From a virus: a stretch of DNA of 48,996 nt. The first letter of the stretch is position 1, and each line of letters begins with the position of its first letter. The position numbers were made by a program, and so were the translations under genes. A model generated the notes under the pieces. That model had not been told where the DNA came from and did not search any database. It saw nothing but the letters and a program-made list of their open reading frames with translations. The stretch is taken from positions 1-48,996 of IMG/VR virus record IMGVR_UViG_3300037873_000028. One strand, given 5' to 3'. Of this stretch, positions 2,911 through 18,167 are shown piece after piece.

Positions 2911-2934
2911 TCCGTCAGGCGACCGCGCCCATCA

Positions 2935-2952
2935 CCGAGCAGGCGGGCGGTG
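2935..2952 (+). repeat. Gene-junction repeat copy 3 (CCGAGCAGGCGGGCGGTG)
   Basis: Lies in a 19-codon mini-ORF (2907..2966, MIRQATAPITEQAGGGRDA) that is coupled by ATGA at both ends. Confidence 0.8.
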
Positions 2953-2958
2953 GCCGCG

Positions 2959-3393
2959 ATGCATGACCCGCTGATGATGCTGTTCCGGGTCAAGCTGATC
3001 CGGCTGGACATCTGGCACCGGGAGCCCGGCGGCCACGACGCCGGCGAGGTGTGCGGACCGCCACCGAACAGCGGCCCGTCCGCCTGGTGGTGGTATCTGC
3101 GCCACGTCCGGCACTGGCATCCACGCTGGTGGCCGGTCTTCCGGGTGCGCAAGTGGATCACCGACCGGTGCGACCACTGCGGCCGGCGGTTCCGCTGGCG
3201 CGAAGCCCGATTCAGCTACATCAGCACGGACAAGGTGTGGCACGACCCGTGCATGGCGCTGCGGCACGTCCGAAGCCAGCTCGACGACATCACCCGCTAC
3301 GTGATGGCCACGGCCGACGACACCACCCGCTGGCGGGTCGAGTACCGGCTGAAGCATCTGGACAAGGCCGCCGCCGAGCAGGTGACCCGGTGA
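2959..3393 (+). CDS. Hypothetical Trp/Arg-rich protein
   Basis: ATG at 2959, with an alternative GTG at 2950. Contains WWWYLRHVRHWHPRWWP and a CDHCGRRF motif. GC3 is high. Confidence 0.6.
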   Translation: MHDPLMMLFRVKLIRLDIWHREPGGHDAGEVCGPPPNSGPSAWWWYLRHVRHWHPRWWPVFRVRKWITDRCDHCGRRFRWREARFSYISTDKVWHDPCMALRHVRSQLDDITRYVMATADDTTRWRVEYRLKHLDKAAAEQVTR

Positions 3394-3623
3394 ACGCCCG
3401 GCTGGCCGCGCTCGCCGACATCACCTGGGACCTGATCGTCTGGGGCCACCGGGGCGGCCCCGCCACCCGGCGCCACCCCACCTACGCCTGGCTGTGCAGC
3501 ATCCCCGCCGGCCGGCTGGCGCTGCTATCCGTCCGCTTCGGGCTGGAGTGCATCGCCGCGGGAACCCTGGCGCTGCTGGCGATCCGGCTGCGCCGCGGTG
3601 AGTACGCGGCGGTGACGTCGTGA
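3390..3623 (+). CDS. Hypothetical protein (77 aa), hydrophobic C-terminal half
   Basis: GTGA overlap at 3390-3393 in frame with ORF 3051..3623. Contains LECIAAGTLALLAI. Confidence 0.5.
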   Translation: MNARLAALADITWDLIVWGHRGGPATRRHPTYAWLCSIPAGRLALLSVRFGLECIAAGTLALLAIRLRRGEYAAVTS

Positions 3624-3901
3624 GCCGCCCCGCCGACGGCTGGCAGGACCGCGCGTTCTGCGCCTACCTGGTGGCCCGGCCCGACACCGACGTGACCGTC
3701 CGGCTGTGGTACCCCGGCCCCGGCCAGCGGTCCAACTACAACTTGGCGCGGCGGATCTGCCACCAGTGCCCGGTGCGGGTCGAGTGCTTGCAGTACGCGC
3801 TGGCCACTGAGGTCGAGTACTTCAGGCATGGCATGTGGGGTGGCCTCACCGCCGACGAGCGGTCCACGTTGGTCCGGCAGCGGCAGGCGGCGGTCCGGTG
3901 A
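3620..3901 (+). CDS. whiB: WhiB-family Fe-S transcription factor
   Basis: Four Cys in WhiB spacing (FCAY ... ICHQCPVRVEC) followed by GMWGG. Confidence 0.9.
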   Translation: MSRPADGWQDRAFCAYLVARPDTDVTVRLWYPGPGQRSNYNLARRICHQCPVRVECLQYALATEVEYFRHGMWGGLTADERSTLVRQRQAAVR

Positions 3902-4041
3902 GCCAGACCTGCCAGCAGACCTGGCCATCCGACCAGCCCACCCGGACCGATGCCACCTACCGTCAGCACCGCTGCGGCCTGAACGTGGACCACCGGGGGC
4001 GCTGCATGTGCCGCTACTGCGGGCATGGGGTGGCCCTATGA
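3898..4041 (+). CDS. Small Cys-rich protein (47 aa)
   Basis: GTGA overlap with the whiB stop. Contains HRCGLNVDHRGRCMCRYCGH. Below the ORF-track size cut-off for its trimmed form. Confidence 0.4.
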   Translation: MSQTCQQTWPSDQPTRTDATYRQHRCGLNVDHRGRCMCRYCGHGVAL

Positions 4042-4367
4042 GCCCTCACCGGGTGGACCCCAGCCGCGGCGGCAAGGACGACGACTACCGCCGGGGCTAC
4101 CGCCAGGGCCGTGCCGACACCCGCGCCCAGAAGGCCGCCGTCCGCCGCGCCGGTAAACGACGCCGCTCCGGCTGCACGCTCGCGCTGCTGATGCTGCCGT
4201 GGCTGCTGCTGCGCCACCGCGCGCACGACCAGCCCGACCGGCACGACCAGCACCCCGACCGGTTGGGCGGCCACGAACCAACCGGGTTCTCAGACCACCT
4301 GACACCGGCGGCCGAACTGCTGCGCCGGCTCAACCACACCACCGACACCACCACTGAGGAGAGTTGA
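4038..4367 (+). CDS. Hypothetical protein (109 aa) with one hydrophobic segment
   Basis: ATGA overlap at 4038. Contains CTLALLMLPWLLL. Confidence 0.55.
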   Translation: MSPHRVDPSRGGKDDDYRRGYRQGRADTRAQKAAVRRAGKRRRSGCTLALLMLPWLLLRHRAHDQPDRHDQHPDRLGGHEPTGFSDHLTPAAELLRRLNHTTDTTTEES

Positions 4368-4368
4368 C

Positions 4369-4614
4369 ATGGCCGAGTTCAAGATCGGCGACAAGGTGCG
4401 CGACCTCACCATGTTCGCGGCCGGGATCGGCCGCCAGCATCTCGGCCAGGTCGTGGCCATCTGGCCGCGTACCGAGACCGGCCCGGTGCAGATCGTCGGC
4501 GTGCTCCTCAGGATCACCCACACCATAGACGAGGTCCTGTTGGCGGTGGAGGAGCCCAACATGGATGTCCAGGAGTGGACGCTGAGCCCGGGTGGGCAGG
4601 TGACGGTCCGATGA
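4369..4614 (+). CDS. Hypothetical protein (81 aa)
   Basis: ATG preceded by GAGGAGAG. GC3 is high. Confidence 0.65.
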   Translation: MAEFKIGDKVRDLTMFAAGIGRQHLGQVVAIWPRTETGPVQIVGVLLRITHTIDEVLLAVEEPNMDVQEWTLSPGGQVTVR

Positions 4615-4856
4615 CCGCCACCGACCCGGTTGCCATCCCCTACGCCGCGCTCACCGCCGCGCTCACCGACTGGCAGGTCGACCCCGGCGACGTGCTCGAC
4701 CTGTCCCTCCGCGCCACCCCGGCCGGCGGGTGGCTTGAGGTCGTCCGCCGCCGGCGCGACGCCGACGGGCATCCGCTCACCGCCGGCGGCGGCGTGGCCA
4801 CCGTCACCACCGTGATCGGCATCGACCCGGCCACCACCGGAGAGGAACCGACGTGA
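4611..4856 (+). CDS. Hypothetical protein (81 aa)
   Basis: ATGA overlap at 4611-4614. Confidence 0.6.
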   Translation: MTATDPVAIPYAALTAALTDWQVDPGDVLDLSLRATPAGGWLEVVRRRRDADGHPLTAGGGVATVTTVIGIDPATTGEEPT

Positions 4857-4969
4857 GCCGCCGGGACCCGACCCTGGGTCGGCACCTGCGCGGCCTGGCC
4901 CAACTCACCGTGCTGCTGGCCGTGGTCGCGGCGCTGGCGCTCGTCTGGCTGCACGCGGCCGGGTGGTGA
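4853..4969 (+). CDS. Possible 38-aa single-pass membrane peptide
   Basis: GTGA overlap at 4853. VSRRDPTLGRHLRGLAQLTVLLAVVAALALVWLHAAGW. Hand-translated and not in the ORF track. Confidence 0.35.
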   Translation: MSRRDPTLGRHLRGLAQLTVLLAVVAALALVWLHAAGW

Positions 4970-4971
4970 CA

Positions 4972-5190
4972 ATGGCCATCACGCTCACCGCCGCGCTCCA
5001 GCCGGGTTTCATTCGCGGCTGCCGCGTCGTCGGCATCATGTCCCTAAAGTGGGATCACAACCCTGCGCGCCCCAGCCTGTACGTACCGGTCATCCAAGCG
5101 CGGGGGCCGGTCTGTGAGCGGTGCTGGATGGAGCGGGGGTTCGTGGTCCCCGAATCGTCGGCCACCTGCCGCCATCGTGGTGCGTCGTGA
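4972..5190 (+). CDS. Hypothetical protein (72 aa)
   Basis: ATG at 4972, with an alternative GTG at 4963. GC3 is mostly high. Confidence 0.4.
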   Translation: MAITLTAALQPGFIRGCRVVGIMSLKWDHNPARPSLYVPVIQARGPVCERCWMERGFVVPESSATCRHRGAS

Positions 5191-5612
5191 TCCGCCACCA
5201 CCTGGCCGTGGCCGCCACCCACCCGGCCACCGCCCACACCGCCACCGCCGTAGCGGTCGTCGCCGGCACCGCGGCCGGGCTGTGGCTGCTGGCCACCGCC
5301 GGGCCGCTGCCGCTGCTCGCCGCCCTGTGGGCGGTGGCCACCCTGCTCCCCCGACGCCACCCGGCTGCTGCGTTAGAGGCGGCCCGGGTGGTCCCCCAGG
5401 CTCCCGCGTTAGGTGGCGCGGTGGCAGCCGGGGTTGTGGCGCCCGCCCCTGGTAGGGGTGCGGGGGCGGGCGCCGCCCGGCCGGTGGCGGGCTCCCACTT
5501 CCCCCGGGGGTCTGCCACCGGCCGGCACCGCACTGGCGGCACCCAGATGCCCGCCCGCCGCGGCCACGTGGTCTACGCGACCGGCCGGGCCGCCGTGCGA
5601 GGTGCGACATGA
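5187..5612 (+). CDS. Hypothetical Ala-rich membrane protein (141 aa)
   Basis: GTGA overlap at 5187. The hydrophobic first half has high GC3. The second half has weaker codon bias, so part of 5360-5600 may be non-coding. Confidence 0.4.
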   Translation: MIRHHLAVAATHPATAHTATAVAVVAGTAAGLWLLATAGPLPLLAALWAVATLLPRRHPAAALEAARVVPQAPALGGAVAAGVVAPAPGRGAGAGAARPVAGSHFPRGSATGRHRTGGTQMPARRGHVVYATGRAAVRGAT

Positions 5613-8553: not shown

Positions 8554-8786
8554 CGCGGGAGGAGTTCACGGAGCGGCTGACATCATTCGGCCTGATCTCG
8601 TGGGCCGGCGGCTTGGCGGTGGCCATACTGCTGTTGATCTTCGATGATCTGCTGCCCCCTTTCGTTGCCGGCATCGCCCTAGCAATCGCGGCGGTGTACG
8701 CGAACCGTTGGCACGCAAGACGGCTGGTCCGACGGCTGGACGCGCAACGGCCGGGCTGGCACCTACCAGAGAGGACACGACCATGA
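8550..8786 (+). CDS. Membrane protein (78 aa, two hydrophobic helices)
   Basis: ATGA overlap. Contains GLISWAGGLAVAILLLIF and FVAGIALAIAAVY. Confidence 0.55.
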   Translation: MTREEFTERLTSFGLISWAGGLAVAILLLIFDDLLPPFVAGIALAIAAVYANRWHARRLVRRLDAQRPGWHLPERTRP

Positions 8787-9166
8787 TCCGTAGCCTGCTC
8801 GTCCTGCTCATCGCCACCACCCTCGGCAGCCTGTGGTGGTGGTCCGGTGTGGTCGGCCGCCGCCGGCTCGACCTCGAAGACGCCGCGCTGCTCGCCCGCA
8901 CCCAGGCCATGCCCACCGGCGGCCGGGAAGGCCGCTGCCCACGCTGCGGCGGTTCACACTGCCGCCCGTGGCGGGAAACCGGCGCCGACTGCGGCGGGCA
9001 GCACGCCCCATCACTCGTCCACACCATGTGGACACCTCAGCGGGGCGTGCACGAGCCGGTGGCGGTGCTGCGGCGCATCGTCCCCGGCGGGTGGCGCCCA
9101 CCCCGGCCCCTGTGGTCCACCCTGGCCGAGCGGGTCGGCGGCTTCCCAGTGGGGGTGCTGCCATGA
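8783..9166 (+). CDS. Membrane-anchored Cys-containing protein (127 aa)
   Basis: ATGA overlap. N-terminal MIRSLLVLLIATTLGSLWWW, then CPRCGGSHC. Confidence 0.55.
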   Translation: MIRSLLVLLIATTLGSLWWWSGVVGRRRLDLEDAALLARTQAMPTGGREGRCPRCGGSHCRPWRETGADCGGQHAPSLVHTMWTPQRGVHEPVAVLRRIVPGGWRPPRPLWSTLAERVGGFPVGVLP

Positions 9167-9702
9167 GGATCGTCCGCCGCGACAACGGGCGCATGGCAGA
9201 AGTGCAGCCAGTGAAGCCAGTCCCAATCTCGCAAGGTCTTGTTGCACTCGTGGACGAAGCCGACCTCCACCTAGTCAGTCCGTTCAACTGGTCCGCTCAA
9301 CGCTCGGGCAATACCTGGTATGCCTATCGACGCCACGGAGCCAGCAAGCAGTTTATGCATCAGATCATCGGTGGTTTTCCTCGCACCGACCATATCAACG
9401 GCAATGGCCTGGACAACCGGAAGATCAACCTGCGCCCCGCGACCCACGTCCAGAACGGCCAGAACATGCGGAAGTCCCGAGGCACCTCACGCTACAAGGG
9501 AGTAAGCCGACAGGCGGACCGCCAACTTTGGAAGGCTGAGATCAAGTCGGGCGGGCGGCGCCTGTTCCTGGGTCGATTCAAAGAGGAGGAGCTGGCCGCG
9601 CGAGCGTATGACGCTACCGCCAGGAGCTTGTTCGGGGAGTTCGCTGCACTGAACTTCCCGTGCGATGGAGAGCGCTCGGCGCATCGGGGGGCTGCCGCGT
9701 GA
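9163..9702 (+). CDS. HNH endonuclease with AP2 DNA-binding domain (paralog 1 of 3)
   Basis: DHINGNGLDNRKINLRPATHVQNGQN (HNH) plus SRYKGV...W.A.I...LGRF..EE.AARAYD..A...FGEFAALNFP (AP2). GC is visibly lower than in the neighbouring genes. Confidence 0.85.
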   Translation: MRIVRRDNGRMAEVQPVKPVPISQGLVALVDEADLHLVSPFNWSAQRSGNTWYAYRRHGASKQFMHQIIGGFPRTDHINGNGLDNRKINLRPATHVQNGQNMRKSRGTSRYKGVSRQADRQLWKAEIKSGGRRLFLGRFKEEELAARAYDATARSLFGEFAALNFPCDGERSAHRGAAA

Positions 9703-10529
9703 GAATCCAGCGCAGAGACAACGGAAGATCACACTGGTACGTCGACACCGACACCGACCAGAAGGTCGACGGCGTAACAACCATCGTTGGCAACGGCCTA
9801 CCCAAACCAGCGCTGCTCAACTGGGCAGGCGACGCCACCGCTGAATATGCAGTCGACAACTGGACAGACCTCGACCCACTACCCATGTCCGAACGCCTCA
9901 AGAAGATCAAGGGCGGCCGATACGAGAAACGCGACGCCGCATCCAACAGGGGCAGCCAGATACACGGGATGGCCGAGCGGCTGATTGCTGGAGAGCGGGT
10001 CACCGTACCCGACGCGCTCGCCGGCTACGTTCAGTCCTGCGTAAGGTTCTTGGACGAGTTCGACGTGCGAGCAGTCCATGTCGAGGCCGTCGTCTACTCC
10101 GAAACCCGCCGCCACGTCGGCACCCTCGACCTCATCGCGGACGTGCTGATACCCGACATGCCGGAGTACGACAGCATCGAGCGCGGCGAGGACGGGTACG
10201 CGCGGGGTCTGCTCGACTGGAAGACCGGTAAATCGGGGATTTTCGGCGACGTGGCGATGCAGCTGGCGCCATATCGGCATTCCGAGTATCTGGTCTTGCC
10301 CGACGGGACTGTGATCGACATGCCCCCGGTGGACTTCTGCGCCGGCATCCACATTCGCGCCGACGACTACGAGTTTGTGCCGTTGCTGTGCGGCGAGGAC
10401 CAGTACCGCGACTTCCTTTACATCAAGGAAGTCGCGCGAATTCAGGCCGGGCTGCGGGACCTAGTTGGGCAGCCGATCCAGCCACCCACCGCATCCGCCT
10501 ACGTGCTGGCGAAAGCAGACGAGACATGA
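9699..10529 (+). CDS. PD-(D/E)XK exonuclease (Cas4/RecB-like phage exonuclease, 276 aa)
   Basis: GTLDLIAD ... LLDWKTGKS gives the D...(D/E)xK motif. Positioned directly upstream of an ERF annealase. Confidence 0.7.
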   Translation: MRIQRRDNGRSHWYVDTDTDQKVDGVTTIVGNGLPKPALLNWAGDATAEYAVDNWTDLDPLPMSERLKKIKGGRYEKRDAASNRGSQIHGMAERLIAGERVTVPDALAGYVQSCVRFLDEFDVRAVHVEAVVYSETRRHVGTLDLIADVLIPDMPEYDSIERGEDGYARGLLDWKTGKSGIFGDVAMQLAPYRHSEYLVLPDGTVIDMPPVDFCAGIHIRADDYEFVPLLCGEDQYRDFLYIKEVARIQAGLRDLVGQPIQPPTASAYVLAKADET

Positions 10530-11299
10530 CCGACACCACACCCGCGCTGGCCGCCGCGCTCGCCAAGGTCCAGGCCGAGCTGCCCGAAGTGGAGCGTGAC
10601 CGGACCGTGGAGGTGGAGAAGAAGGCCGGTGGTACCTACAGCTACTCGTACGTAACCCTGGCGAACCTGTCCAAGGCCGTCCTGCCGCTGCTCGCCAAGC
10701 ACGGCCTCGCGTTCACCGCCCTGCCCGGCGCCGGCACCGACGGGAAGATGTGCCTGCGCTACCACCTGCTACACGAATCCGGCGAGACCCTGTCCGGCGA
10801 GTTCCCCATCTCCGGCGAGGGCGGAATCCAGATGATCGGCGGCCGGATCACCTACGCCCGCCGCTACTGCCTGGCCGCGCTGGTCGGCGTCGCCGCGGAC
10901 GAGGATGACGAGTCCCGGCTAGACGAGCCCGGCCGCGCAACCGCCCAGCGGGCCAGTGCGCCACGCGCAACCGTGCCGCGGCCCACGAAAGCCGCCGGGC
11001 GGACCGCCCAGCGGGCGGCCCCGCCGCCACTGCCAAGCGATGGACCCACACCGATCAGCGCCCCCCAGCGGGCAAAGCTGATGGCCGGGTTCGGCCAGAT
11101 CGGCATTACCGACCGGGCTGAGCGGCTGGACATCGCCACCAGGATCGTCGGCCGGTCCGTCGGCTCGGCCAACGAGCTGACCCTGGATGAGGCCCGGCAG
11201 GTGATCGACGCGCTGGAGAGGGCCATCGCGAGCGACAACCCGGCGTTGACGCTGGCCGAGATCGCCGCCTTTGGCGAGGTGACTGATGCCACCACGTAG
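10526..11299 (+). CDS. erf: ERF-family single-strand annealing protein
   Basis: YSYSYVTLANLSKAVLPLLAKHGL ... RITYARRYCLAALVG is the recalled ERF signature. The C-terminal half is low-complexity. Confidence 0.8.
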   Translation: MTDTTPALAAALAKVQAELPEVERDRTVEVEKKAGGTYSYSYVTLANLSKAVLPLLAKHGLAFTALPGAGTDGKMCLRYHLLHESGETLSGEFPISGEGGIQMIGGRITYARRYCLAALVGVAADEDDESRLDEPGRATAQRASAPRATVPRPTKAAGRTAQRAAPPPLPSDGPTPISAPQRAKLMAGFGQIGITDRAERLDIATRIVGRSVGSANELTLDEARQVIDALERAIASDNPALTLAEIAAFGEVTDATT

Positions 11300-11777
11300 C
11301 CCGCGCCACATCGGCACCGACACTGAGACCGCCGTCGTCCGGCACCTGCAGGCCGCCGGCTGGCCGTCGGCCGAACGCCGCTCACTGCGCGGACAGCTCG
11401 ACGCCGGCGACATCACCGGCACCCCCGGCATCTGCTGGTCCGTCAAAGGCGGCCAGGCGGCGAAGGCCGCCAGCGACGGTCAGATCGAAGCCTGGCTGGC
11501 TGAGGCTGAGAAGCAGAAGGCCAACGCCCTGGGCGCCATCGTGTTTCTGCTGGTGGTGCAGCGCAAGGGCATCGGCCCGGCGAATGCCGGCCGCTGGTGG
11601 GCGGTGATGCCCGGCTGGCAGTACGAGTCGCTGTGCCAGCGCGCCGGGGCGGTCCGACCCGACGAGCTCGGCGGGCTCGGCCGCTGGTGCTTCGGCGACC
11701 GCGGGCCGATCCGCATGCACCTGACCCAGGCGTGCGCCCTGCTCAACTACGCCGGCTACGGAGACGCCGATGGCTGA
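11286..11777 (+). CDS. Putative Holliday-junction resolvase / PD-(D/E)XK endonuclease (163 aa)
   Basis: GTDTETAVVRHLQAAGWPSAERRSLRGQLDAGDITGTPGICWSVKGG resembles Hjc-like phage resolvases (E...D...x-V-K). The assignment comes from the motif and from its position after exo/ERF. Confidence 0.55.
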   Translation: MPPRSPRHIGTDTETAVVRHLQAAGWPSAERRSLRGQLDAGDITGTPGICWSVKGGQAAKAASDGQIEAWLAEAEKQKANALGAIVFLLVVQRKGIGPANAGRWWAVMPGWQYESLCQRAGAVRPDELGGLGRWCFGDRGPIRMHLTQACALLNYAGYGDADG

Positions 11778-12030
11778 GTACGTCGAGGACTACGGGTCCG
11801 GCAAGCCGCTGTGCGTCGACTGCGCCACCGGGGCGTGCATCGGTGACATCGCCTGGGAATGCGAGGCCGAATGGTGCCAATGCCCGTGCCGCGCCGACGA
11901 CCGGGCGGCCGAGCTTGACGACCGGCCGGCGGACAAGCTGGCCGCGGTCGCCGCCGAGCTCGCGGCCGAACGCGACGGTGACCCGCGGGATCTGACCGCC
12001 GAGAGGTTCGGGAAAGGCCGTCATGGCTAA
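11770..12030 (+). CDS. Small Cys-rich acidic protein (86 aa)
   Basis: CVDCATGACIGDIAWECEAEWCQCPC. Overlaps the upstream gene by 8 nt. Confidence 0.55.
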   Translation: MAEYVEDYGSGKPLCVDCATGACIGDIAWECEAEWCQCPCRADDRAAELDDRPADKLAAVAAELAAERDGDPRDLTAERFGKGRHG

Positions 12031-12196
12031 GGGATGCAGGGGCAAGCGGAAGCGGACCTACAGCGAGGCGATCGCCGCGGCGCTGCGCTGCTCACGCAAA
12101 CGCGGCACGCCGCTGCGGCCCTACCACTGTGACCGGTGCGGCACCTGGCACCTGACCAAGCATCCGCTACGGGCACGCTCGGAGGTGCCGGCATGA
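12023..12196 (+). CDS. Small basic zinc-ribbon-like protein (57 aa)
   Basis: Hand-translated: MAKGCRGKRKRTYSEAIAAALRCSRKRGTPLRPYHCDRCGTWHLTK. ATGA overlap with the next gene at 12193. Confidence 0.5.
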   Translation: MAKGCRGKRKRTYSEAIAAALRCSRKRGTPLRPYHCDRCGTWHLTKHPLRARSEVPA

Positions 12197-12429
12197 GCGG
12201 GGTGTGGCTGGGCGCCAGCCGGGCGCTCGAACGGCCCGTGCCCACCACCGAGCCCTACCCGCACATCTGCGGCAGCATCATCACCGGCTACGCCACCGGC
12301 CGGGCGGTCACCCTGTGGCGCAACGCCTGCGCGGCGTGCGCGTGGGAGCGGGGCGAGAAGCGGCAGCGGGTGGAGGTCACCGATGAGCTGTTGGAGTTGG
12401 AGCGAAGGCGGTTGGGGGAGCGGGAATGA
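12193..12429 (+). CDS. Hypothetical protein (78 aa)
   Basis: ATGA overlaps at both ends. Confidence 0.55.
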   Translation: MSGVWLGASRALERPVPTTEPYPHICGSIITGYATGRAVTLWRNACAACAWERGEKRQRVEVTDELLELERRRLGERE

Positions 12430-13232
12430 CCCGCTCACACCGCTGGATTGGCAAGGAGACGCACCTTAAGGAGCGCGACTTCTCCGGCCTCATCGGTGGC
12501 ATCCACGTGCCGATCTGCAAGAGCATCCACGACCGTTACGGCCGCCCAAATGATCCGCCGTACCTGTTCGCCGACCTGAACGGCGGCCCCGGGCAACTCC
12601 GGGATGATGCCGGCAGGGAATTCCCGGGTAGTCCGCTCATCGCCGTCGACGCGCTGGCCCGGTCCGGGGTGCCGTACGAGACACTGCACTTCGAGAGCGA
12701 CCCGGACGTTGCCGCCGAGTTGGCCGCCGCCCTGCACCCCAGCATCTACCCCGATACGACCGTCTGCGAGATGCCCTTCGAGGACGGGATTCGTAACTGG
12801 CTGACCCAGACGCGGCCGCACCGGTACCGCTACGGGATGGTCTACTCGGACCCTATCGAGACCCCCATTCCAGTCGACACCTTCAACGACGTCGCCGCGC
12901 ACTTCCCGAGAGTGGACCTGCTCGCCTACGTGGCCGCGAATAACCAGTACAAGCGGATCAACGGTAGTGGCCGCGGGCATGGGCGCAGGTTGGCGGACGA
13001 CATCGCCGCTGTGCACAAGAAGAAGGTACTCATCCGGACGCCGGCCGGCGGTGAGCAGTACACCTTCATCCTGTTCACCGACTGGACCAAGATGCCGCCG
13101 TGGACCAGCCACGGCTTCCACGAGCTGAAGGCCACTGGGCCGGGGCGTCTCATCCTGGATGAGCTGAACCTGACTCGACGTGAGTTACATCAGAGAGCGA
13201 ATCAGCCCCTGCCGTTCGAGGAGCTGGGATGA
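12426..13232 (+). CDS. TcmP-like protein (three-Cys-motif partner protein family; methyltransferase-fold-like)
   Basis: THLKERDF ... PYLFADLNGGPGQ ... FPGSPLIAVDAL matches my recollection of TIGR04474. It lies two genes upstream of a Gp37/Gp68 (DUF5131) gene, as the family definition expects. Confidence 0.6.
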   Translation: MTRSHRWIGKETHLKERDFSGLIGGIHVPICKSIHDRYGRPNDPPYLFADLNGGPGQLRDDAGREFPGSPLIAVDALARSGVPYETLHFESDPDVAAELAAALHPSIYPDTTVCEMPFEDGIRNWLTQTRPHRYRYGMVYSDPIETPIPVDTFNDVAAHFPRVDLLAYVAANNQYKRINGSGRGHGRRLADDIAAVHKKKVLIRTPAGGEQYTFILFTDWTKMPPWTSHGFHELKATGPGRLILDELNLTRRELHQRANQPLPFEELG

Positions 13233-13585
13233 CACCTACCAACATTCGGGAGCATCCACCAAGTTGGACGTGCGTCGAGGGTGACCATGTTGAGTGCGAT
13301 AGCCCACGCTGCGGGTGTGGCTGCCATCCATACGGCTACGTTCTTCCCGGGGCGGGCGACGCGCCGTACCTCACATATCGCGAGTACCTGCGCCACCCTA
13401 GATTCCGTCGGGTTCGGGCTAAGGTGTTCCGGCGCGCCGGCGGGTCGTGTGAACGATGTGACCAACGACCACCGTCTGAGCCCCATCATCTTTGGTATCC
13501 GCCGTGGGGCACCTTCGACGTGCCCGAGAACATGATTGCCGTCTGCCACCCCTGCCACTGCCAGATCCACGGGAAGGCGTCATGA
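13229..13585 (+). CDS. HNH nuclease-family protein (118 aa)
   Basis: SCERCDQRPPSEPHHLWYPPWGTFDVPENMIAVCHPCHCQIHG gives CxxC...HH...N...CxxCHxxxH. There is an additional N-terminal Cys/His cluster. Confidence 0.7.
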   Translation: MTPTNIREHPPSWTCVEGDHVECDSPRCGCGCHPYGYVLPGAGDAPYLTYREYLRHPRFRRVRAKVFRRAGGSCERCDQRPPSEPHHLWYPPWGTFDVPENMIAVCHPCHCQIHGKAS

Positions 13586-14886
13586 ACGAGACACCGGACA
13601 TCCAGTATGGGCGCCTGTTGGAAGCTGCCGAGATCAGCGGCTACGCCGCGCACCGTGCGTTCGAGGTCACGCGAGGGCTGCTGGAATCCGGCGACTGGCA
13701 GAGGGTGGGGCCGGGCTTCAACGACGTGAGCCTGTTCGTCCGTAGCGTGCCGTTCGGGACGCTGAACCCGCCGGAGGAGTTGCGGAAGTCGTACGAACGG
13801 ATTGCCGCCGAGCATGGCGCCACACAGCGCGCTATCGCAGACAGCGCCGGGGTCAGTCAGTCAACCGTCCACAGGGACCTGGCTCCTGATTCAAGTGAAT
13901 CGGGGCCGGGAGTAGCCGCTGCCACTGACCTGCAAGAACCGGAGCAAGCATCGGATGTAGGTGATTCATTTGAATCACAGCCACTCCCCGACCTGCCCGC
14001 TGGGCAGGACGTAGCTGACGAGATTCTGGCAGGGATAGACCAGCAGACCGCAGCGCCAGAACCAGATCATGCGCCGGAGATCGCCCCCAAGCGCGAATCG
14101 GTCATGCTGACCTTGTACGACCACACCGGCAAGGGGCATCCGTACCCAAAGCCCCAGAGCAAGCCCACCTTCAACGAGACCACCGGCGAAGGCATCTCCT
14201 GGGCCGCCTGGTCCTGGAACCCGGTCACCGGCTGCCTCCACGGCTGCGACTACTGCTACGCCCGCGCCATCATCCACCGATACCCCGAACCCAACCCGGC
14301 CGGGTTCACGCCGCTGTTCCATGATGAGCGGCTGAGCGCGCCCGGCAACACCACTATCCCCGAACGGCACCGCGATGATCCCGCCTACAGCCGGGTGTTC
14401 GTCTGCTCGATGGCAGATCTCTACGGCCGGTGGGTGCCGTTGAAGTGGATCGAGGATGTACACAAGGCGATGACCGACAACCCGCAATGGGAATACCTGC
14501 TGCTGACCAAGTTCCCGGACCGGTACGTCGAGCTGGAGCTACCGGCCACCGCCTGGGTAGGCACCTCGGTCGATGAGCAGAAGCGGGTGCGGATCGCCGA
14601 GCGCGCCTTCCGCCGCATCGAGGGCGTCAAGGTCAAGTGGCTGTCGCTCGAACCATTGAGGGAGCCTCTGGAGTTCACCGACCTGTCCATGTTCGACTGG
14701 GTTGTCATCGGCGCCCAGACGGCTACGGTCCAGCCCACCGGCCCGGTGCCCGCCTTCGGCCCGCCGTCCAAGTGGGTCGACCAGATCAAACGGCTCGCTG
14801 ATGCGGCCGGCATCCCGGTGCACGAGAAACCCAACCTGTACAACGGGAATCCCGGGGCGCAGCCGCGAAACGAGTACCCGGCATGA
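13582..14886 (+). CDS. HTH domain fused to a Gp37/Gp68 (PF07505/DUF5131) radical-SAM-like domain (434 aa)
   Basis: N-terminal HTH is ATQRAIADSAGVSQSTVHRDL. An acidic linker of about 100 aa follows. The C-terminal WNPVTGCLHGCDYCYA carries a CxxxCxxC motif typical of DUF5131. Confidence 0.75.
   Translation: MNETPDIQYGRLLEAAEISGYAAHRAFEVTRGLLESGDWQRVGPGFNDVSLFVRSVPFGTLNPPEELRKSYERIAAEHGATQRAIADSAGVSQSTVHRDLAPDSSESGPGVAAATDLQEPEQASDVGDSFESQPLPDLPAGQDVADEILAGIDQQTAAPEPDHAPEIAPKRESVMLTLYDHTGKGHPYPKPQSKPTFNETTGEGISWAAWSWNPVTGCLHGCDYCYARAIIHRYPEPNPAGFTPLFHDERLSAPGNTTIPERHRDDPAYSRVFVCSMADLYGRWVPLKWIEDVHKAMTDNPQWEYLLLTKFPDRYVELELPATAWVGTSVDEQKRVRIAERAFRRIEGVKVKWLSLEPLREPLEFTDLSMFDWVVIGAQTATVQPTGPVPAFGPPSKWVDQIKRLADAAGIPVHEKPNLYNGNPGAQPRNEYPA
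13888..13978. repeat. Two AT-rich palindromes GATTCAnnTGAATC, 75 bp apart, inside the linker of CDS 13582..14886
   Basis: 13888-13901 is gattcaagtgaatc. 13961-13978 is gtgattcatttgaatcac, with perfect 8-bp arms. I found no other copy in the window by eye. Confidence 0.8.
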
Positions 14887-14956
14887 CCCGCCACCGACCT
14901 ATCCGGAAGCCCGCACCCGCCCAGGCGGAAAGCGCACCGGAGCAAGGAGCCGCCTG

Positions 14957-15643
14957 ATGCCCTGGGTCCGGTTCGATGACCAGTACCCGATCCACCGCAA
15001 GGTGAAGCCCTTGTCGGACTCCGAATATCGGTGGCACAACGAGGCGATCTTCTGGTGTGCACGAAACCTCACAGACGGATACGTGCCCGCTGAGGACGTG
15101 GCGGAAGTGTCAGTGGTACGGCGGCCGCACAAGGTCATCCCTTGCCTGGTGGCTCGGGGCTTACTTCACGAAACCGGACACCACTGCGCATCACCACAAT
15201 GCCCACCCGCGCCGGGTGGGGACGGTTGGATGTTGCACGACTACTGGGACTACCAGCCGTCCAAGGTCAAGGTGCTCGCCGAACGCAGGGCCAAAGCCGA
15301 ACGGCAGGCCCGCTGGCTCGCCAAGCGGAACGGGGCGGCATCCACAGGGCCAGCCGCCTTATCCACAACGGGTATGTCCGGGAATCCTCGGGATGGTCCG
15401 AAAAAAGACGCCGATGCAGACGCGTCTACAGACGCGTCTGGAGACGCGTCTGTAGACGCCCCCCCGCCCCGCCCCGCCCCGAAGGAGGCGGTGGCGGGCC
15501 ACCGCAGCACCGCCCGCCGCCAGCGCGCTGGCGGCGCGGCGGGCGGTGAGCCGAACGTCCGAACATCACCCACCTGCCCACGCTGCGGCAACCCCACCAG
15601 CAGCGCCTACCACCGCAACGTCTGCGCCAAGCAGACGCCATGA
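14957..15643 (+). CDS. Putative replication organiser / DNA-binding protein (228 aa)
   Basis: ATG at 14957 after AAGGAG. The MPWVRFDDQYPIHRKV...SEYRWHNEAIFWCARNLTDGYVP N-terminus is of a type I associate with actinophage replication/DNA-binding proteins. C-terminal CPRCG. The function is inferred, not established. Confidence 0.5.
   Translation: MPWVRFDDQYPIHRKVKPLSDSEYRWHNEAIFWCARNLTDGYVPAEDVAEVSVVRRPHKVIPCLVARGLLHETGHHCASPQCPPAPGGDGWMLHDYWDYQPSKVKVLAERRAKAERQARWLAKRNGAASTGPAALSTTGMSGNPRDGPKKDADADASTDASGDASVDAPPPRPAPKEAVAGHRSTARRQRAGGAAGGEPNVRTSPTCPRCGNPTSSAYHRNVCAKQTP
15406..15460. repeat. Five 12-bp-phased units: three perfect AGACGCGTCT palindromes flanked by two AGACGCC half-sites
   Basis: Palindromes are at 15418-27, 15430-39 and 15442-51. 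Half-sites are at 15406-12 and 15454-60. An A6 tract (15401-06) precedes them and a (CCCCG)n tract (15461-80) follows. Confidence 0.85.
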
Positions 15644-15686
15644 CCCCGACCTGCCGGTCCGAGCGGCTCGCACGAAAGGACCCACC

Positions 15687-15884
15687 ATGACCACTCAGCT
15701 CGAACACGACCCAGACGAGGCCACCGACATGACCCGAGCCCAGCGGATCCGTGCTGATGCCGTCATCGTCGCCAGCCAGCTGCTCGGCGACGGCATCACC
15801 GGCACCACCGACGCCATCGCCGCGTACCTGATCGAGCTGGCCGAGCCGATCGCCGACTGGATCCGCGACGGGAGCCGGCCATGA
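15687..15884 (+). CDS. Hypothetical acidic protein (65 aa)
   Basis: ATG after AAAGGA. ATGA overlap at the 3' end. Confidence 0.55.
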   Translation: MTTQLEHDPDEATDMTRAQRIRADAVIVASQLLGDGITGTTDAIAAYLIELAEPIADWIRDGSRP

Positions 15885-16072
15885 CCGCCATCTTCTGGAC
15901 CGGCGCCGCCCTCGTGGTCACACCCCTACTTGCACTTCTCGGGTTCGCGAACCTGGTGCTCTACCGCCAGGAGGGCTGGCGCGGGCCGGCCTGGTTCTGG
16001 GGCATCCTGGGCGCCATCCTCGGCCCGATCCTGGTCGGCGCCATCCTGCTCAACGTCGGGAGCCCGTCATGA
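15881..16072 (+). CDS. Small membrane protein (63 aa, two TM)
   Basis: AALVVTPLLALLGFANLVLY and FWGILGAILGPILVGAILL. Confidence 0.55.
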   Translation: MTAIFWTGAALVVTPLLALLGFANLVLYRQEGWRGPAWFWGILGAILGPILVGAILLNVGSPS

Positions 16073-17421
16073 CCACCCACCAGCTGTGTGCGGCACCGGT
16101 CGGGCTGAACCCCGACCCCGACAGCCGCGAGCGTGTCCAGTGCGGCCAGCAGCGCCCGTGCCCGGTCCACGACCAGCCGTCCGCCGCGCCCGCCCAGCCG
16201 GCCCAGGACGCCCCGGCAGCCGCCGCCCCTACCCCGGGGACCACCGGCCCGGCCATCCTGGGACGGGCGCTGCTGGACCGGCACGGCACGCTGTGGCAGG
16301 ACGATGCGCCACTGAGAAACGACGTTGACATGCTGAAGGCAGGCGCCACATACGTCACTCGCTCGTATGCCGAGAACTACGGCGGCCCGTTGCGGCCAGT
16401 GCTGCTGGTGGACCCGGCCGTCGCCAGGGTGCTGGATGCGGCGGCCGCGGTGCTGCGCGAGTGGCGGCACCCAACCGGCCTGCCGCCCATCAAGGCGATG
16501 CGTGCCGAGCGCCGCGACTCCATCGCTGCGCAGTGGGAGGAACTCGCGGACCTGCTAGACGACGCCCTGGCCGCCGCCGTGGACGCGCTCGGGGAACCGG
16601 CCGGCACACCACCAGCCGACACACCGGCCGGCGACAGCATCGACCCGGCCACCATCCCAGACCAGCGGGCCAAGAACTGGGCCGACTGGCACCCGGAGAC
16701 CTACTGCCACCGCTGCGGCCGGCGCAACATCTGGTCCTGGTACGCCGACAGCGCCGTCTGGAACGAGGCTGAGGGCGACGGCGGCGGCATCCTTTGCCCG
16801 GTGTGCTTCGTGGCCGACCATGAGCGGGTCACCGGGGCGCGCACGTCCTGGCGGCTGGCCCCGGCTGGCAAGACGGACGAGGTGGGGCACCTGGTCCGTT
16901 CCGAGGCGGAGATGCGGCACCAGCTGGACACCGCCCGCGCCGAGTTGGACACGGCGAGCTCGCAGGCCACGTCCCGCTGGCAGCGCATCATCGAGCTGCG
17001 CGCCGAGCTGGCCACCGCCCGCCGGCACGCCGAGTACCGGGCGACAGACGGGCCGGGTTGGGACCGGTACACCGTGGAGGGGGTGATCGACCGGAGCTGC
17101 GCCGATGCCACCGGTGAGGAGCTGGACCAGCTACGGGCGCTGCTGGACGACGTGGACCAGTACGAGGGATGGGCCGAGCGGCTGGCCGAGCACATCCCGG
17201 AGGAGGAGGGCGACGACGTGGCCACGCCGGGGCTGGTCGAGCAGTGGATGGCCCGGCAGCCCGCGCTGCGGGAGGAGATCCGCCGGGACGCCGCCGCCGA
17301 CGCGCTGGTCTTCGCCGCTGGTCTGGCGCACCGCTGGAGCCAGACTGAGTTGGCCGGGGACCTGCGCCACATAGCCGCCGAGATCCGCGCCGGCACTCGC
17401 AGTATTGGAGATGTCAGGTGA
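16069..17421 (+). CDS. Hypothetical 450-aa protein with an internal zinc-ribbon-like motif and coiled-coil-like C-terminal half
   Basis: YCHRCGRRN ... LCPVCF. GC3 is high throughout. I recognise no enzymatic motif. Confidence 0.7.
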   Translation: MTTHQLCAAPVGLNPDPDSRERVQCGQQRPCPVHDQPSAAPAQPAQDAPAAAAPTPGTTGPAILGRALLDRHGTLWQDDAPLRNDVDMLKAGATYVTRSYAENYGGPLRPVLLVDPAVARVLDAAAAVLREWRHPTGLPPIKAMRAERRDSIAAQWEELADLLDDALAAAVDALGEPAGTPPADTPAGDSIDPATIPDQRAKNWADWHPETYCHRCGRRNIWSWYADSAVWNEAEGDGGGILCPVCFVADHERVTGARTSWRLAPAGKTDEVGHLVRSEAEMRHQLDTARAELDTASSQATSRWQRIIELRAELATARRHAEYRATDGPGWDRYTVEGVIDRSCADATGEELDQLRALLDDVDQYEGWAERLAEHIPEEEGDDVATPGLVEQWMARQPALREEIRRDAAADALVFAAGLAHRWSQTELAGDLRHIAAEIRAGTRSIGDVR

Positions 17422-18167
17422 CGGTCGTGCGAATCCCACTGCATCATGGTCTGTTTCTGCTAGTCGATGATGCCGATGCGGAAGCTGTCTCCCAGTTCAG
17501 GTGGCGTCCTGCGGGGAAGCGGGAAACCTATTACGCACGACGACGCTTCCTAGAACCTGATGGGGATTCCGTGCGAGAGCGAGGCCAGTTCGTGCACACC
17601 TTCTTGACCGGTTGGCCACGGGTTGACCACATCAACGGCAACGGCTTGGACAACCGGCGCTGCAACTTGCGACCTGCTACTGAGTCACAGAACCAAGCCA
17701 ATCGCCAAAAAACCAAGGGAACATCTCGCTACAAGGGCGTTGTTTGGGACACGTCGAGGCTTAGGTGGCTAGCGAGGATTTACCCGCAGGGGAAGCAGAT
17801 CAAGCTTGGCCGCTTCATGTCGGAGGAGGATGCAGCACTCGCCTACGACGATGCAGCGCGCCGCTACTTCGGTGACTACGCTGCCCTGAACTTTCCACGT
17901 CCGGGCGAGCAGTCGGCCCTTGGCAGGGTGGCACCGGTAGCCAGGGGGCTTCCCCTGGTCGGTCGTGGGGTCAGGGGTCACCGCCTTGTACGCGTCACCG
18001 CCAAGGAATATCAATGCTCCTGCGGATGCCCACTTGTCTTCGCCCCGCACGGAAAGAGTCAGACTCGCGCTAGGGAAGCAATGAAGGCACACTGCCAAGA
18101 CCTCCTCAAGGTCCGTCCCGTCCCCGGCAGCCCGGCCCCGGCCAGCGGAGAGGACGCGGACCAGTGA
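17418..18167 (+). CDS. HNH endonuclease with AP2 domain (paralog 2 of 3) plus a C-terminal extension
   Basis: DHINGNGLDNRRCNLRPATESQNQAN plus SRYKGV...LGRF..EEDAALAYDDAARRYFGDYAALNFP. GTGA overlap. GC is lower than in the flanks. Confidence 0.85.
   Translation: MTVVRIPLHHGLFLLVDDADAEAVSQFRWRPAGKRETYYARRRFLEPDGDSVRERGQFVHTFLTGWPRVDHINGNGLDNRRCNLRPATESQNQANRQKTKGTSRYKGVVWDTSRLRWLARIYPQGKQIKLGRFMSEEDAALAYDDAARRYFGDYAALNFPRPGEQSALGRVAPVARGLPLVGRGVRGHRLVRVTAKEYQCSCGCPLVFAPHGKSQTRAREAMKAHCQDLLKVRPVPGSPAPASGEDADQ

What the first reader, a model, noticed from the sequence alone, without database searches (positions are those of the whole stretch)
12426..14886. TcmP-like / HNH / HTH-fused DUF5131 (CxxxCxxC) trio next to the recombination genes
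Three genes are coupled by ATGA overlaps:
- A 268-aa protein with the TcmP pattern (PYLFADLNGGPGQ, GSPLIAVDAL).
- A 118-aa HNH nuclease-family protein.
- A 434-aa fusion of an N-terminal HTH, an acidic linker of about 100 aa, and a Gp37/Gp68 (PF07505/DUF5131) domain carrying WNPVTGCLHGCDYCYA. That is the radical-SAM-type CxxxCxxC motif.

TcmP and DUF5131 proteins are catalogued as genomic partners. As far as I know they have no demonstrated biochemical function.

In this window the pair is split by an HNH protein. The Fe-S-type half is fused to a DNA-binding domain. The module sits between a recombination cassette (exo/ERF/resolvase) and the replication organiser. Local GC also looks lower than in the surrounding early genes.

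This points to DNA-directed chemistry. Candidates are base or backbone modification, repair, or counter-defence, with a built-in targeting domain.
Basis: partly seen in the sequence, partly recalled or inferred. Interest (0 to 1): 0.8.

Follow-up and report, generated by a model that had tools for sequence, protein, structure and literature searches.

The report
Phage SAM/Fe-S enzyme pair with nuclease
A temperate actinobacterial phage carries a conserved three-part cassette (a methyltransferase-fold protein, its own HNH nuclease, and a DNA-binding radical-SAM-like enzyme) that almost certainly acts on DNA, belongs to a widespread enzyme pair whose chemistry nobody has shown, and offers a tractable way to find out.

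Summary

- **Gene 3** is a clear DUF5131 protein. It has an N-terminal HTH domain, an acidic disordered linker of about 75 aa, and the motif WNPVTGCLHGCDYCYA.
- **Gene 1** is TcmP-like only below threshold (31.8 bits against a cut-off of 53). Its model has an RlmJ-type SAM-methyltransferase fold. The SAM-binding motifs are kept, but the catalytic DPPY motif is degenerate (SDPI).

Main correction: the HNH protein does not interrupt the pair. It is a dedicated third component.
- All 24 IMG/VR loci that carry this HNH subfamily also carry the TcmP-like gene and the DUF5131 gene.
- In relatives the HNH is fused in frame to the TcmP-like protein, or encoded in the -1 frame with no start codon behind a conserved in-phase slippery heptamer C_CCT_TTC (a probable programmed frameshift), or encoded as a separate coupled gene, as here.

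Second correction: the Cx3Cx2C spacing is specific to this clade. The two canonical DUF5131 proteins I aligned have Cx6Cx2C.

The DUF5131 N-termini swap between HTH and ParB-like domains, which points to DNA as the target. I found no paper that gives a function. My best guess, at moderate confidence, is a DNA modification-plus-nuclease module that tells self from non-self. I class it as a new variant of a known but uncharacterised kind.

The parts
12136..12429 (+). Upstream 97-aa ORF whose stop overlaps the start of the TcmP-like gene (ATGA). Whether it belongs to the cassette is doubtful.
   Evidence: ORF with GC3 0.88. No Pfam or PHROG hit. No homologue next to the cassette in related loci.
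12426..13232 (+). TcmP-like protein, 268 aa, with a class-I SAM-methyltransferase (RlmJ-type) fold. Motif I is DLNGGPG, followed by GSPLIA, an acidic residue at HFE90, and a degenerate motif IV (SDPI).
   Evidence: TIGR04474 E=1.3e-7, 31.8 bits, below the 53-bit cut-off. AF2 pLDDT 91. Top Foldseek hit is RlmJ, E=4e-9. hhalign against E. coli RlmJ gives probability 89%, E=2e-6. About 1226 clusters of relatives.
13229..13585 (+). Dedicated HNH nuclease, 118 aa. Residues 46-118 form the conserved module (CERC...HH...N...CHPCHC..H). Residues 1-45 are a Cys/His-rich extension not found in the relatives examined.
   Evidence: PHROG HNH families down to E=4.5e-8. The same module is fused to TcmP-like proteins in relatives. 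24 of 24 loci with this HNH subfamily carry DUF5131. Catalytic residues are invariant.
13582..13884 (+). N-terminal helical DNA-binding (HTH) domain of the 434-aa protein, residues 1-101.
   Evidence: Weak HTH matches at residues 68-101. Confident helical model, pLDDT about 90-97. Homologues have other HTH or ParB-like domains at this position.
13885..14103 (+). Acidic, disordered linker, residues about 102-174.
   Evidence: pLDDT below 50 over residues 106-132 and low up to about 175. Length and sequence vary among homologues.
14104..14886 (+). Conserved beta-hairpin extension (residues 175-203) followed by the DUF5131 catalytic domain (204-434).
   Evidence: PF07505 E=2.9e-34. phrog_2045 E=1.1e-42. 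PADLOC PDC-M41B and PDC-M30B at E about 1e-32 and 1e-31. The barrel model's best PDB match is lipoyl synthase, probability 0.96.
14233..14256 (+). Three-Cys motif C218-x3-C222-x2-C225 (CLHGCDYC) with an aromatic residue before the third Cys. This is the candidate 4Fe-4S ligand set.
   Evidence: Translation. Invariant in 67 of 67 aligned homologues. The two canonical DUF5131 proteins aligned have Cx6Cx2C.
14954..15643 (+). Replication initiation protein. This is context; its homologue also directly follows DUF5131 in several related loci.
   Evidence: phrog_2447 E=2.2e-27. Synteny in L015, L046, L017 and L009.

Best explanation
This is a three-component, DNA-directed cassette expressed from the early lytic operon of a temperate actinophage.

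**Components**
1. An RlmJ-fold, SAM-binding TcmP-like protein.
2. A dedicated HNH nuclease that works with it. In relatives the two are one polypeptide.
3. A DUF5131 enzyme (three-Cys, radical-SAM-like partial barrel) tethered to DNA by an N-terminal HTH domain through a flexible acidic linker.

**Shown here**
- The three parts co-occur obligatorily.
- The HNH is covalently linked to the TcmP-like protein in relatives.
- The folds and motifs are as described.
- The DNA-binding domain on the DUF5131 enzyme is swapped between relatives.

**Inferred**
- The tethered Fe-S enzyme, together with the SAM-binding partner, makes or checks a covalent change on DNA.
- The HNH then cuts DNA of the wrong chemical state.
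- This would be a modification-plus-nuclease logic that separates self from non-self, comparable to a restriction-modification system or to the T4 pairing of modified DNA with nucleases that attack unmodified host DNA.
- It would benefit the phage during lytic growth.
For: **Co-occurrence**
- A DUF5131 gene directly follows the TcmP-like gene in 10 of 10 loci with downstream sequence.
- The HNH module lies between them in every one of these loci. It is also present in L005-L007, where the partner is far diverged.
- In a sample selected only by HNH similarity, 24 of 24 loci carry DUF5131 and a TcmP-like partner. Two of these have the permuted order HNH, partner, DUF5131.

**Physical link between HNH and the TcmP-like protein**
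- In-frame fusions occur.
- Other loci are -1-frame junctions with no start codon and an in-phase C_CCT_TTC.

**Fold and motifs**
- RlmJ-type fold with SAM motifs.
- Intact HNH catalytic and zinc-binding residues.
- Three-Cys motif invariant in 67 of 67 homologues, with radical-SAM spacing and an aromatic residue.
- Weak structural match to radical-SAM lipoyl synthase.
- DUF5131 is classed in the radical SAM superfamily next to spore photoproduct lyase (PMC9477430).

**DNA targeting**
- HTH and ParB-like N-termini are exchanged on a conserved catalytic domain.

**Expression context**
- The genes are co-directional and overlapping.
- There is no promoter-like or + strand terminator-like site between the recombination and replication genes.
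- The cassette has the same early-operon position in L001, L015 and L016.
Against: - No biochemical evidence exists for any member of the family.
- The TcmP-like protein lacks the PP-aromatic part of motif IV that amino-methyltransferases use (SDPI against DPPY). It may therefore not methylate at all.
- PF04055 is not significant.
- Structural similarity of the DUF5131 domain to radical SAM enzymes is weak (E=0.02).
- One chromosomal relative (L004) has the pair without any HNH, so the nuclease is not universally required.
- Canonical TcmP/DUF5131 pairs sit in contexts that suggest defence. That favours a host- or prophage-protective role over a role in lytic growth.
Confidence: 0.4

Rival explanations
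1. It is an anti-phage defence or superinfection-exclusion system. The cassette would attack incoming foreign DNA, or cause abortive infection, for the benefit of the lysogen, as proposed for TcmP/DUF5131-type candidate systems.
For: - The DUF5131 domain matches PADLOC candidate systems PDC-M41B and PDC-M30B (E=2.6e-32 and 3.8e-31).
- In Gordonia phage Fairfaxidum, a true TcmP (109 bits) and a DUF5131 gene lie between the integrase and the immunity repressor.
- TcmP lies near the hna defence gene (SMa2243 and SMa2245) in S. meliloti (PMC12445080).
- A nuclease effector is present.
Against: - Here and in L001, L015 and L016 the cassette lies inside the rightward early lytic operon, coupled to recombination and replication genes. 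It is not in the lysogeny module.
- Gene 1 and the HNH match no PADLOC A-component.
- The PDC systems are only candidates.
Confidence: 0.2
2. It is a repair or counter-defence module. The radical-SAM-like enzyme would reverse a DNA lesion or a host-imposed DNA modification, in the manner of a spore photoproduct lyase, and the HNH would process the DNA.
For: - DUF5131 clusters next to spore photoproduct lyase and MJ0683-like proteins in the radical SAM superfamily (PMC9477430).
- There are weak NCBIfam hits to the PA0069 and Rv2578c radical SAM families.
- The cassette sits beside the exo/ERF/RusA recombination genes.
Against: - The similarity to these families covers only the Cys-motif region (residues 192-234).
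- Nothing explains why a SAM-binding methyltransferase-fold partner would always be needed.
- No lesion-recognition domain is present.
Confidence: 0.1
3. It is a selfish mobile cassette. The HNH would be a homing endonuclease that spreads the cassette between related phage genomes, and the other two genes would be cargo or immunity.
For: - GC is lower than the contig average, and the HNH gene has GC3 of only 0.67.
- The cassette sits at different positions in mosaic early operons.
- The window carries two other AP2-HNH homing-type genes.
Against: - Free-standing homing HNH genes are not normally fused to a conserved enzyme by in-frame fusion or frameshift.
- Strict three-way co-occurrence across two diverged partner clades points to joint function.
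Confidence: 0.1
4. The target is RNA. The pair would modify host or phage rRNA or tRNA, in keeping with the RlmJ (23S rRNA m6A) ancestry of the partner, and the HTH would serve only as an autoregulator.
For: - The best structural and profile matches of gene 1 are RNA methyltransferases, RlmJ and Trm1.
- Known RNA hypermodification pathways combine radical SAM and methyltransferase-fold enzymes (for example wybutosine; established knowledge, not tested here).
Against: - ParB-like and HTH DNA-binding fusions and a fused HNH DNA nuclease argue for DNA.
- The early-operon placement is among DNA-metabolism genes.
Confidence: 0.08

Closest known systems
TcmP / DUF5131 'three-Cys-motif' gene pair (TIGR04474 + PF07505, formerly Phage_Gp37Gp68)
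   Same: - A methyltransferase-fold partner sits next to a three-Cys DUF5131 enzyme.
- The pair occurs in phages and mobile elements.
- Gordonia phage Fairfaxidum gp43/gp42 is a bona fide example.
   Different: - Gene 1 scores below the TIGR04474 cut-off and belongs to a sister clade.
- The DUF5131 protein carries an N-terminal DNA-binding domain, a linker and a conserved hairpin extension.
- The Cys spacing is Cx3Cx2C instead of Cx6Cx2C.
- A dedicated HNH is a constant third part.
- The function of the canonical pair is itself unknown.
E. coli RlmJ (23S rRNA m6A2030 methyltransferase)
   Same: - The fold matches (Foldseek E=4e-9).
- Motif I (FLYLDTHAGAG against YLFADLNGGPG) and the YPGSPLIA motif match, and the aspartate of motif IV aligns.
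   Different: - There is no DPPY. The family has SDPI with no aromatic residue.
- The RlmJ helical insert is missing.
- The protein is partnered with an Fe-S enzyme and a nuclease.
- RlmJ acts alone on rRNA.
Radical SAM superfamily, DNA-acting branch (spore photoproduct lyase, MJ0683/PA0069-like)
   Same: - CxxxCxΦC motif near the N-terminus of a partial barrel.
- DUF5131 is placed beside spore photoproduct lyase in RadicalSAM.org megacluster 5.
   Different: - PF04055 is not significant.
- No solved relative is detectable by sequence.
- Only weak structural similarity.
- Cluster binding and SAM cleavage are untested.
PADLOC candidate systems PDC-M30 and PDC-M41
   Same: The B component is a DUF5131 protein (E about 1e-31 to 1e-32).
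   Different: - No A-component match for gene 1.
- No HNH model match.
- The systems are unvalidated candidates.
- Here the setting is a phage early operon, not a defence island.
dnaX-type and tail-chaperone G/GT-type programmed -1 frameshifts (applies to relatives, not to the window)
   Same: - An in-phase X_XXY_YYZ heptamer lies at a domain junction and would give two isoforms from one gene.
- A GC hairpin lies 7 nt downstream in a subset.
   Different: - The frameshift would join an enzyme-like domain to a nuclease.
- It is unverified experimentally.
- The window itself has CTG CCG TTC at this position and a separate ATG-started HNH gene.

Membership tests
TcmP (NCBIfam TIGR04474) | Score at or above the curated cut-off (53 bits) | tested here: not met
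   31.8 bits, E=1.3e-7. Relatives score 31-60 bits, with TIGR04474 as their only hit.
TcmP (NCBIfam TIGR04474) | Encoded next to a DUF5131 three-Cys-motif protein | tested here: met
   Same operon here. 10 of 10 related loci. 24 of 24 HNH-selected loci.
DUF5131 (Pfam PF07505) | Score above the gathering threshold (28.9 bits) | tested here: met
   119.1 bits, E=2.9e-34, residues 204-414.
DUF5131 (Pfam PF07505) | N-terminal WNP..GC...C..CYA three-Cys motif | tested here: met
   WNPVTGCLHGCDYCYA. The spacing is three residues shorter than in two canonical members, TChen gp66 and Fairfaxidum gp42.
Radical SAM superfamily | CxxxCxΦC cluster-binding motif | tested here: met
   C218-x3-C222-x-Y224-C225, invariant in 67 of 67 homologues.
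Radical SAM superfamily | Significant match to PF04055 or to a solved radical SAM structure | tested here: inconclusive
   PF04055 E=0.051, 14.2 bits against 29.5. Foldseek to lipoyl synthase gives E=0.02, probability 0.96. No PDB hit by sequence.
Radical SAM superfamily | 4Fe-4S cluster and reductive cleavage of SAM to 5'-deoxyadenosine | not testable with these tools
   Needs anaerobic purification, UV-vis/EPR and a 5'-dA assay.
HNH (ββα-Me) nucleases | Catalytic His, Asn and His with two CxxC zinc-binding pairs | tested here: met
   C74ERC77...H86H87...N101...C106HPC109HC..H114. All invariant in 12 of 12 aligned sequences. PHROG HNH families down to E=4.5e-8. No Pfam hit at E<=0.1.
RlmJ-type N6-adenine methyltransferases | Class-I methyltransferase fold with RlmJ-like motif I and GSPLIA | tested here: met
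   Foldseek E=4e-9. hhalign probability 89%, E=2e-6.
RlmJ-type N6-adenine methyltransferases | Catalytic (D/N)PP(Y/F) motif IV | tested here: not met
   SDPI(E) aligns to RlmJ IDPPY. D142 and P143 are invariant, but there is no second Pro and no aromatic residue.
PADLOC PDC-M30 / PDC-M41 candidate defence systems | All components of the system model are present | tested here: not met
   Only the B component matches. Gene 1 has no PADLOC hit at E<=0.1.
Programmed -1 ribosomal frameshift site | In-phase X_XXY_YYZ heptamer at the junction, with the downstream domain in the -1 frame and no start codon | tested here: not met
   The window has CTG CCG TTC and an ATG-started HNH ORF. The feature is met in relatives L005, L006, L008, L012, L017 and L051, and in six more metagenome loci.

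The most novel reading that the evidence does not exclude
The cassette could be a previously unrecognised kind of DNA modification and restriction machinery. A DNA-tethered radical-SAM-like enzyme would perform radical chemistry on DNA bases or backbone. An RlmJ-fold SAM-binding partner would flip out or co-modify the target, and its attached HNH would destroy DNA of the other chemical state. In some lineages the ratio of nuclease-bearing to nuclease-free partner would be set by a programmed -1 frameshift. This would give the first function for the whole TcmP/DUF5131 family.
Probability: 0.25. Interest if true: 0.85.

Novelty: new variant of a known kind. Interest (0 to 1): 0.6.

Why it matters
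**An uncharacterised family.** TcmP-like proteins form about 1200 clusters at 50% identity. DUF5131 gave more than 2800 hits in one search and occurs in 132 cultured-phage records. Only one paper in the searchable library mentions DUF5131, and none gives a function.

**This clade says the most about the family, because it adds three features:**
- a DNA-binding domain,
- a nuclease,
- the canonical radical-SAM Cys spacing.

**Concrete experiments follow from these features.** They include tests for Fe-S cluster binding and SAM cleavage on DNA, nucleoside mass spectrometry, and the toxicity of the HNH.

**If the chemistry is on DNA,** it would add a radical-SAM route to phage DNA modification or restriction.

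**The frameshift.** The probable -1 frameshift that joins an enzyme-fold domain to a nuclease in relatives would also be a new example of recoding outside tail-chaperone, dnaX and IS genes.

Tried and rejected
**Searches that led nowhere**
- Megablast of the region against cultured phages found nothing.
- tblastn of gene 1 against cultured phages found nothing. The DUF5131 domain gave only hits below 40% identity.
- Sequence searches of PDB with gene 3 or its profile gave only noise.
- Foldseek of the whole 434-aa model was diluted by the N-terminus and linker, and most hits were generic TIM barrels.
- A BFVD search with the gene 1 model returned only generic methyltransferases.
- A homologue search with the N-terminal 105 aa alone, meant to find other catalytic domains fused to the same DNA-binding domain, returned nothing.
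- Literature searches on TcmP, PF07505, Gp37Gp68, PDC-M30/M41 and the radical SAM mobile pair found no functional study.

**Ideas rejected**
- A fourth conserved Cys (C275) as a hydrogen-atom donor like that of spore photoproduct lyase. It is not conserved outside the clade.
- The HNH as an intruding homing endonuclease. It is fused to the partner and co-occurs with it.
- A universal downstream hairpin that stimulates the frameshift. It is present in 7 of 11 junctions, with a z-score of about -2 at best.
- A separate transcription unit. No promoter-like or + strand terminator-like sites lie in 9000-16500.
- TChen gp65 as a hidden TcmP. It is an AAA_24 ATPase.


Full report
**1. What is in the sequence**

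The window is a complete 48,996-bp metagenome contig. It is a temperate, high-GC (69.5%) actinophage.
- It encodes an integrase at 423-1244 on the minus strand, WhiB, and a portal protein.
- It has a rightward early operon: exonuclease 9660-10529, ERF 10526-11299, RusA-like resolvase 11286-11777, several small ORFs, the three genes of the finding, and then a replication initiation protein at 14954-15643.

- ATGA start/stop overlaps lie at 13229-13232 and 13582-13585. A further ATGA at 12426-12429 links an upstream 97-aa ORF.
- No promoter-like site, and no terminator-like site on the + strand, lies in 9000-16500. The genes are therefore read as part of a long polycistronic unit.
- GC is lower than average (0.625-0.648 against 0.695, and against 0.71-0.72 for the neighbouring recombination genes). 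The exonuclease gene and the AP2-HNH genes are just as low.

**2. Family assignments**

*Gene 3 (434 aa)* is an unambiguous DUF5131 protein.
- PF07505 scores 119 bits at E=2.9e-34 over residues 204-414. phrog_2045 gives E=1.1e-42.
- The AF2 model shows three regions:
  - a confident helical domain at residues 1-100, with weak HTH matches at 68-101;
  - a disordered acidic stretch, with pLDDT below 50 at residues 106-132;
  - an α/β barrel-like C-terminal domain.
- The linker is about 75 aa rather than 100. A beta-hairpin at residues 175-203, conserved across the clade, precedes the Pfam domain.
- The best PDB fold match is the radical-SAM enzyme lipoyl synthase, but it is weak (E=0.02, probability 0.96). 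PF04055 itself is not significant.

*Gene 1 (268 aa)* hits only TIGR04474 (TcmP), at E=1.3e-7. The score of 31.8 bits is below the 53-bit cut-off.
- An exhaustive profile search finds about 1226 clusters of relatives. Ten of ten sampled relatives have TIGR04474 as their only NCBIfam hit, at 31-60 bits. The protein therefore sits in a sister clade of canonical TcmP.
- Its AF2 model is confident (pLDDT 91). The closest solved structure is E. coli RlmJ, the 23S rRNA m6A2030 methyltransferase (Foldseek E=4e-9).
- Profile comparison with RlmJ gives 89% probability and E=2e-6, running from motif I to motif IV.
- Motif I (DLNGGPG against DTHAGAG), the GSPLIA motif, an acidic residue after strand 2 (HFE90) and the aspartate of motif IV are all kept.
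- RlmJ's catalytic IDPPY is SDPI here. There is no second proline and no aromatic residue in any of the 48 family members. SAM binding is therefore likely, but amino-methyl transfer is not assured.

*Gene 2 (118 aa)* is an HNH nuclease with a full set of catalytic and zinc-binding residues.

**3. The HNH belongs to the system**

- In the alignment of gene 1 homologues, many proteins of about 340 aa continue past the ...PLPF end of the TcmP-like domain into the same HNH sequence that forms residues 46-118 of the window's gene 2.
- In every related locus with sequence available, the HNH module lies between the TcmP-like gene and the DUF5131 gene. This includes L005-L007, where the partner is so diverged that TIGR04474 barely detects it.
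- I then retrieved loci from IMG/VR by HNH similarity alone. All 24 loci whose HNH is at least 46% identical to this subfamily carry a DUF5131 gene. All 24 also carry a TcmP-like partner of one of two diverged clades. Two have the permuted order HNH, partner, DUF5131.
- More distant HNH genes have neither partner.
- One chromosomal Streptomyces locus (L004, with a ParB-fused DUF5131) has the pair without an HNH.
- The catalytic domain of DUF5131 is 55-85% identical across this clade, while its N-terminus is exchanged between unrelated HTH domains and ParB-like domains. This is the pattern expected for an enzyme that must be tethered to DNA.

**4. A probable programmed frameshift in relatives**

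The junction between the TcmP-like domain and the HNH takes three forms.
- (a) A separate HNH gene with its own ATG or GTG overlapping the partner's stop codon. This is the form in the window and the commonest one, about 17 of 23 in the HNH-selected sample.
- (b) An in-frame fusion (L001, L003, L009, L014, L050).
- (c) The HNH in the -1 frame with no available start codon.

In every case of form (c) the conserved Leu-Pro-Phe at the end of the TcmP-like domain is encoded CTC CCT TT(C/T). That is an in-phase X_XXY_YYZ slippery heptamer, C_CCT_TTY, lying 9-22 codons before the zero-frame stop.
- A pattern search added six more distinct metagenome examples. In all of them the HNH is in the -1 frame.
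- In the loci retrieved without reference to the heptamer, 6 of 6 junctions without a start codon have it, and 0 of about 18 junctions with a start codon do. My Fisher calculation from those counts gives a probability of about 7e-6.
- CCT makes up only 5.5% of proline codons in these genes.
- A six-base-pair GC hairpin begins 7 nt after the heptamer in 7 of 11 junctions. It is only modestly better than shuffled sequence (z about -2.2 to -2.4) and is absent from the others.
- Two in-frame fusions also keep the heptamer, followed in the -1 frame by a stop within 0-2 codons (L001, L003). There a slip would give a nuclease-free isoform, as in dnaX.
- The window itself has CTG CCG TTC at this position and cannot slip there. 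Its HNH has a Cys/His-rich N-terminal extension of about 45 aa, with low GC3, not seen in the relatives examined.

**5. The Cys motif**

It is not general to the family.
- The two canonical members I aligned, mycobacteriophage TChen gp66 and Gordonia phage Fairfaxidum gp42, have GCx6CxxCYA.
- The HNH-linked clade, including its distant members L043 and L062, has a three-residue deletion that produces the classical radical-SAM spacing with an aromatic residue before the third Cys.
- RadicalSAM.org lists DUF5131 as megacluster 5-2, beside spore photoproduct lyase (5-3) and MJ0683-like proteins (5-1) (PMC9477430).

**6. What it most likely does**

*Shown here*
- Obligatory three-way linkage.
- A covalent link between the nuclease and the SAM-fold protein in relatives.
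- A DNA-binding tether on the Fe-S-type enzyme.
- Early-lytic, co-translated expression next to recombination and replication genes.

*Inferred*
- The tethered DUF5131 enzyme and the SAM-binding partner act on DNA, and the HNH cuts DNA according to the resulting chemical state. This is a modification-plus-nuclease logic for telling self from non-self. I put this at about 0.4.

*Rivals*
- Defence or superinfection exclusion (0.2). It is supported by the PADLOC PDC-M30B and PDC-M41B matches, by the lysogeny-module location of a true TcmP/DUF5131 pair in Fairfaxidum, and by the TcmP gene near hna in S. meliloti.
- Repair or counter-defence (0.1).
- A selfish homing cassette (0.1).
- An RNA target (0.08).
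- Chance juxtaposition is excluded by the co-occurrence data.

**7. Novelty**

The TcmP/DUF5131 partnership is catalogued, and its function is unknown. DUF5131 appears in only one paper of the searchable library, in a list, and I found no functional study.

This locus is a new variant of that kind. It is a sister-clade partner, a DUF5131 with a fused DNA-binding domain and canonical radical-SAM spacing, and a dedicated HNH.

As far as I could find, two things have not been described before:
- the three-part architecture;
- the frameshift-type junction in relatives.

No cultured phage in INPHARED carries a close homologue.

Noticed in passing
L005:7736-7771, L006:7733-7771, L008:6781-6816, L012:6781-6816, L017:1460-1498, L051 near 2960 (related loci, not the window): The HNH domain lies in the -1 frame with no start codon, behind an in-phase slippery heptamer C_CCT_TTC/T on the conserved Leu-Pro-Phe. 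This looks like a programmed -1 frameshift that makes a TcmP-HNH fusion. A GCGGCG-N7-CGCCGC hairpin lies 7 nt downstream in 7 of 11 junctions.
   Followed up: yes
L001:10790-10804 and L003:10799-10807: Two in-frame TcmP-HNH fusions keep the same heptamer. A -1-frame stop follows within 0-2 codons, so a slip there would give a nuclease-free short isoform, as in dnaX. With only two cases this could be chance.
   Followed up: partly
L015 about 8780-8800: The junction reads CTCCCCTTTC, one extra C in the heptamer. This puts the HNH in the +1 frame with no start codon. It could be a homopolymer assembly error in a MAG or a real variant.
   Followed up: no
window 13229-13363: The first 45 residues of the HNH ORF (MTPTNIREHPPSWTCVEGDHVECDSPRCGCGCHPYGYVLPGAGDA) are Cys/His-rich and use many A/T-ending codons. 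Relatives have no counterpart: their HNH genes start about 15 aa before PYR, and the nearest relative's HNH is 89 aa. This may be an extra zinc knuckle or recently recruited sequence.
   Followed up: partly
window 9190-9702 and 17418-18167: Two AP2 + HNH_3 homing-endonuclease-type genes flank the early region. The second has GC 0.615 and GC3 0.67, which suggests recent mobile insertions.
   Followed up: partly
window 16069-17421: A 450-aa ORF with strong coding signal (GC3 0.89) directly after the replication genes has no Pfam or PHROG family.
   Followed up: no
L109 (Gordonia phage Fairfaxidum NC_048185.1) 3537-5478: gp43, annotated 'methyltransferase', is a bona fide TcmP (109 bits). It is convergent with DUF5131 gp42, between the integrase and the immunity repressor, a position typical of prophage-expressed genes.
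   Followed up: partly
L108 (Mycobacterium phage TChen NC_048705.1) 2725-4876: A canonical Cx6Cx2C DUF5131 (gp66) sits between an AAA_24 ATPase (gp65) and an unrelated HNH (gp67). No TcmP-like gene is adjacent, so DUF5131 also occurs with a nuclease but without TcmP.
   Followed up: partly
L004:6953-9440 (Streptomyces sp. NPDC094448 chromosome): A clade-B TcmP-like gene and a ParB-fused DUF5131 lie next to a lanthipeptide cluster with no HNH. This was the only HNH-less example seen.
   Followed up: no
L042:3001-5530 and L052:3001-5456: The gene order is permuted: HNH, then the TcmP-like gene, then DUF5131. Here the HNH directly follows an ERF-like gene.
   Followed up: partly
window 14954-15643; L015, L046, L017, L009: A homologue of the replication initiation protein directly follows the DUF5131 gene in several otherwise mosaic relatives. 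This could be shared synteny or a functional link to replication.
   Followed up: partly
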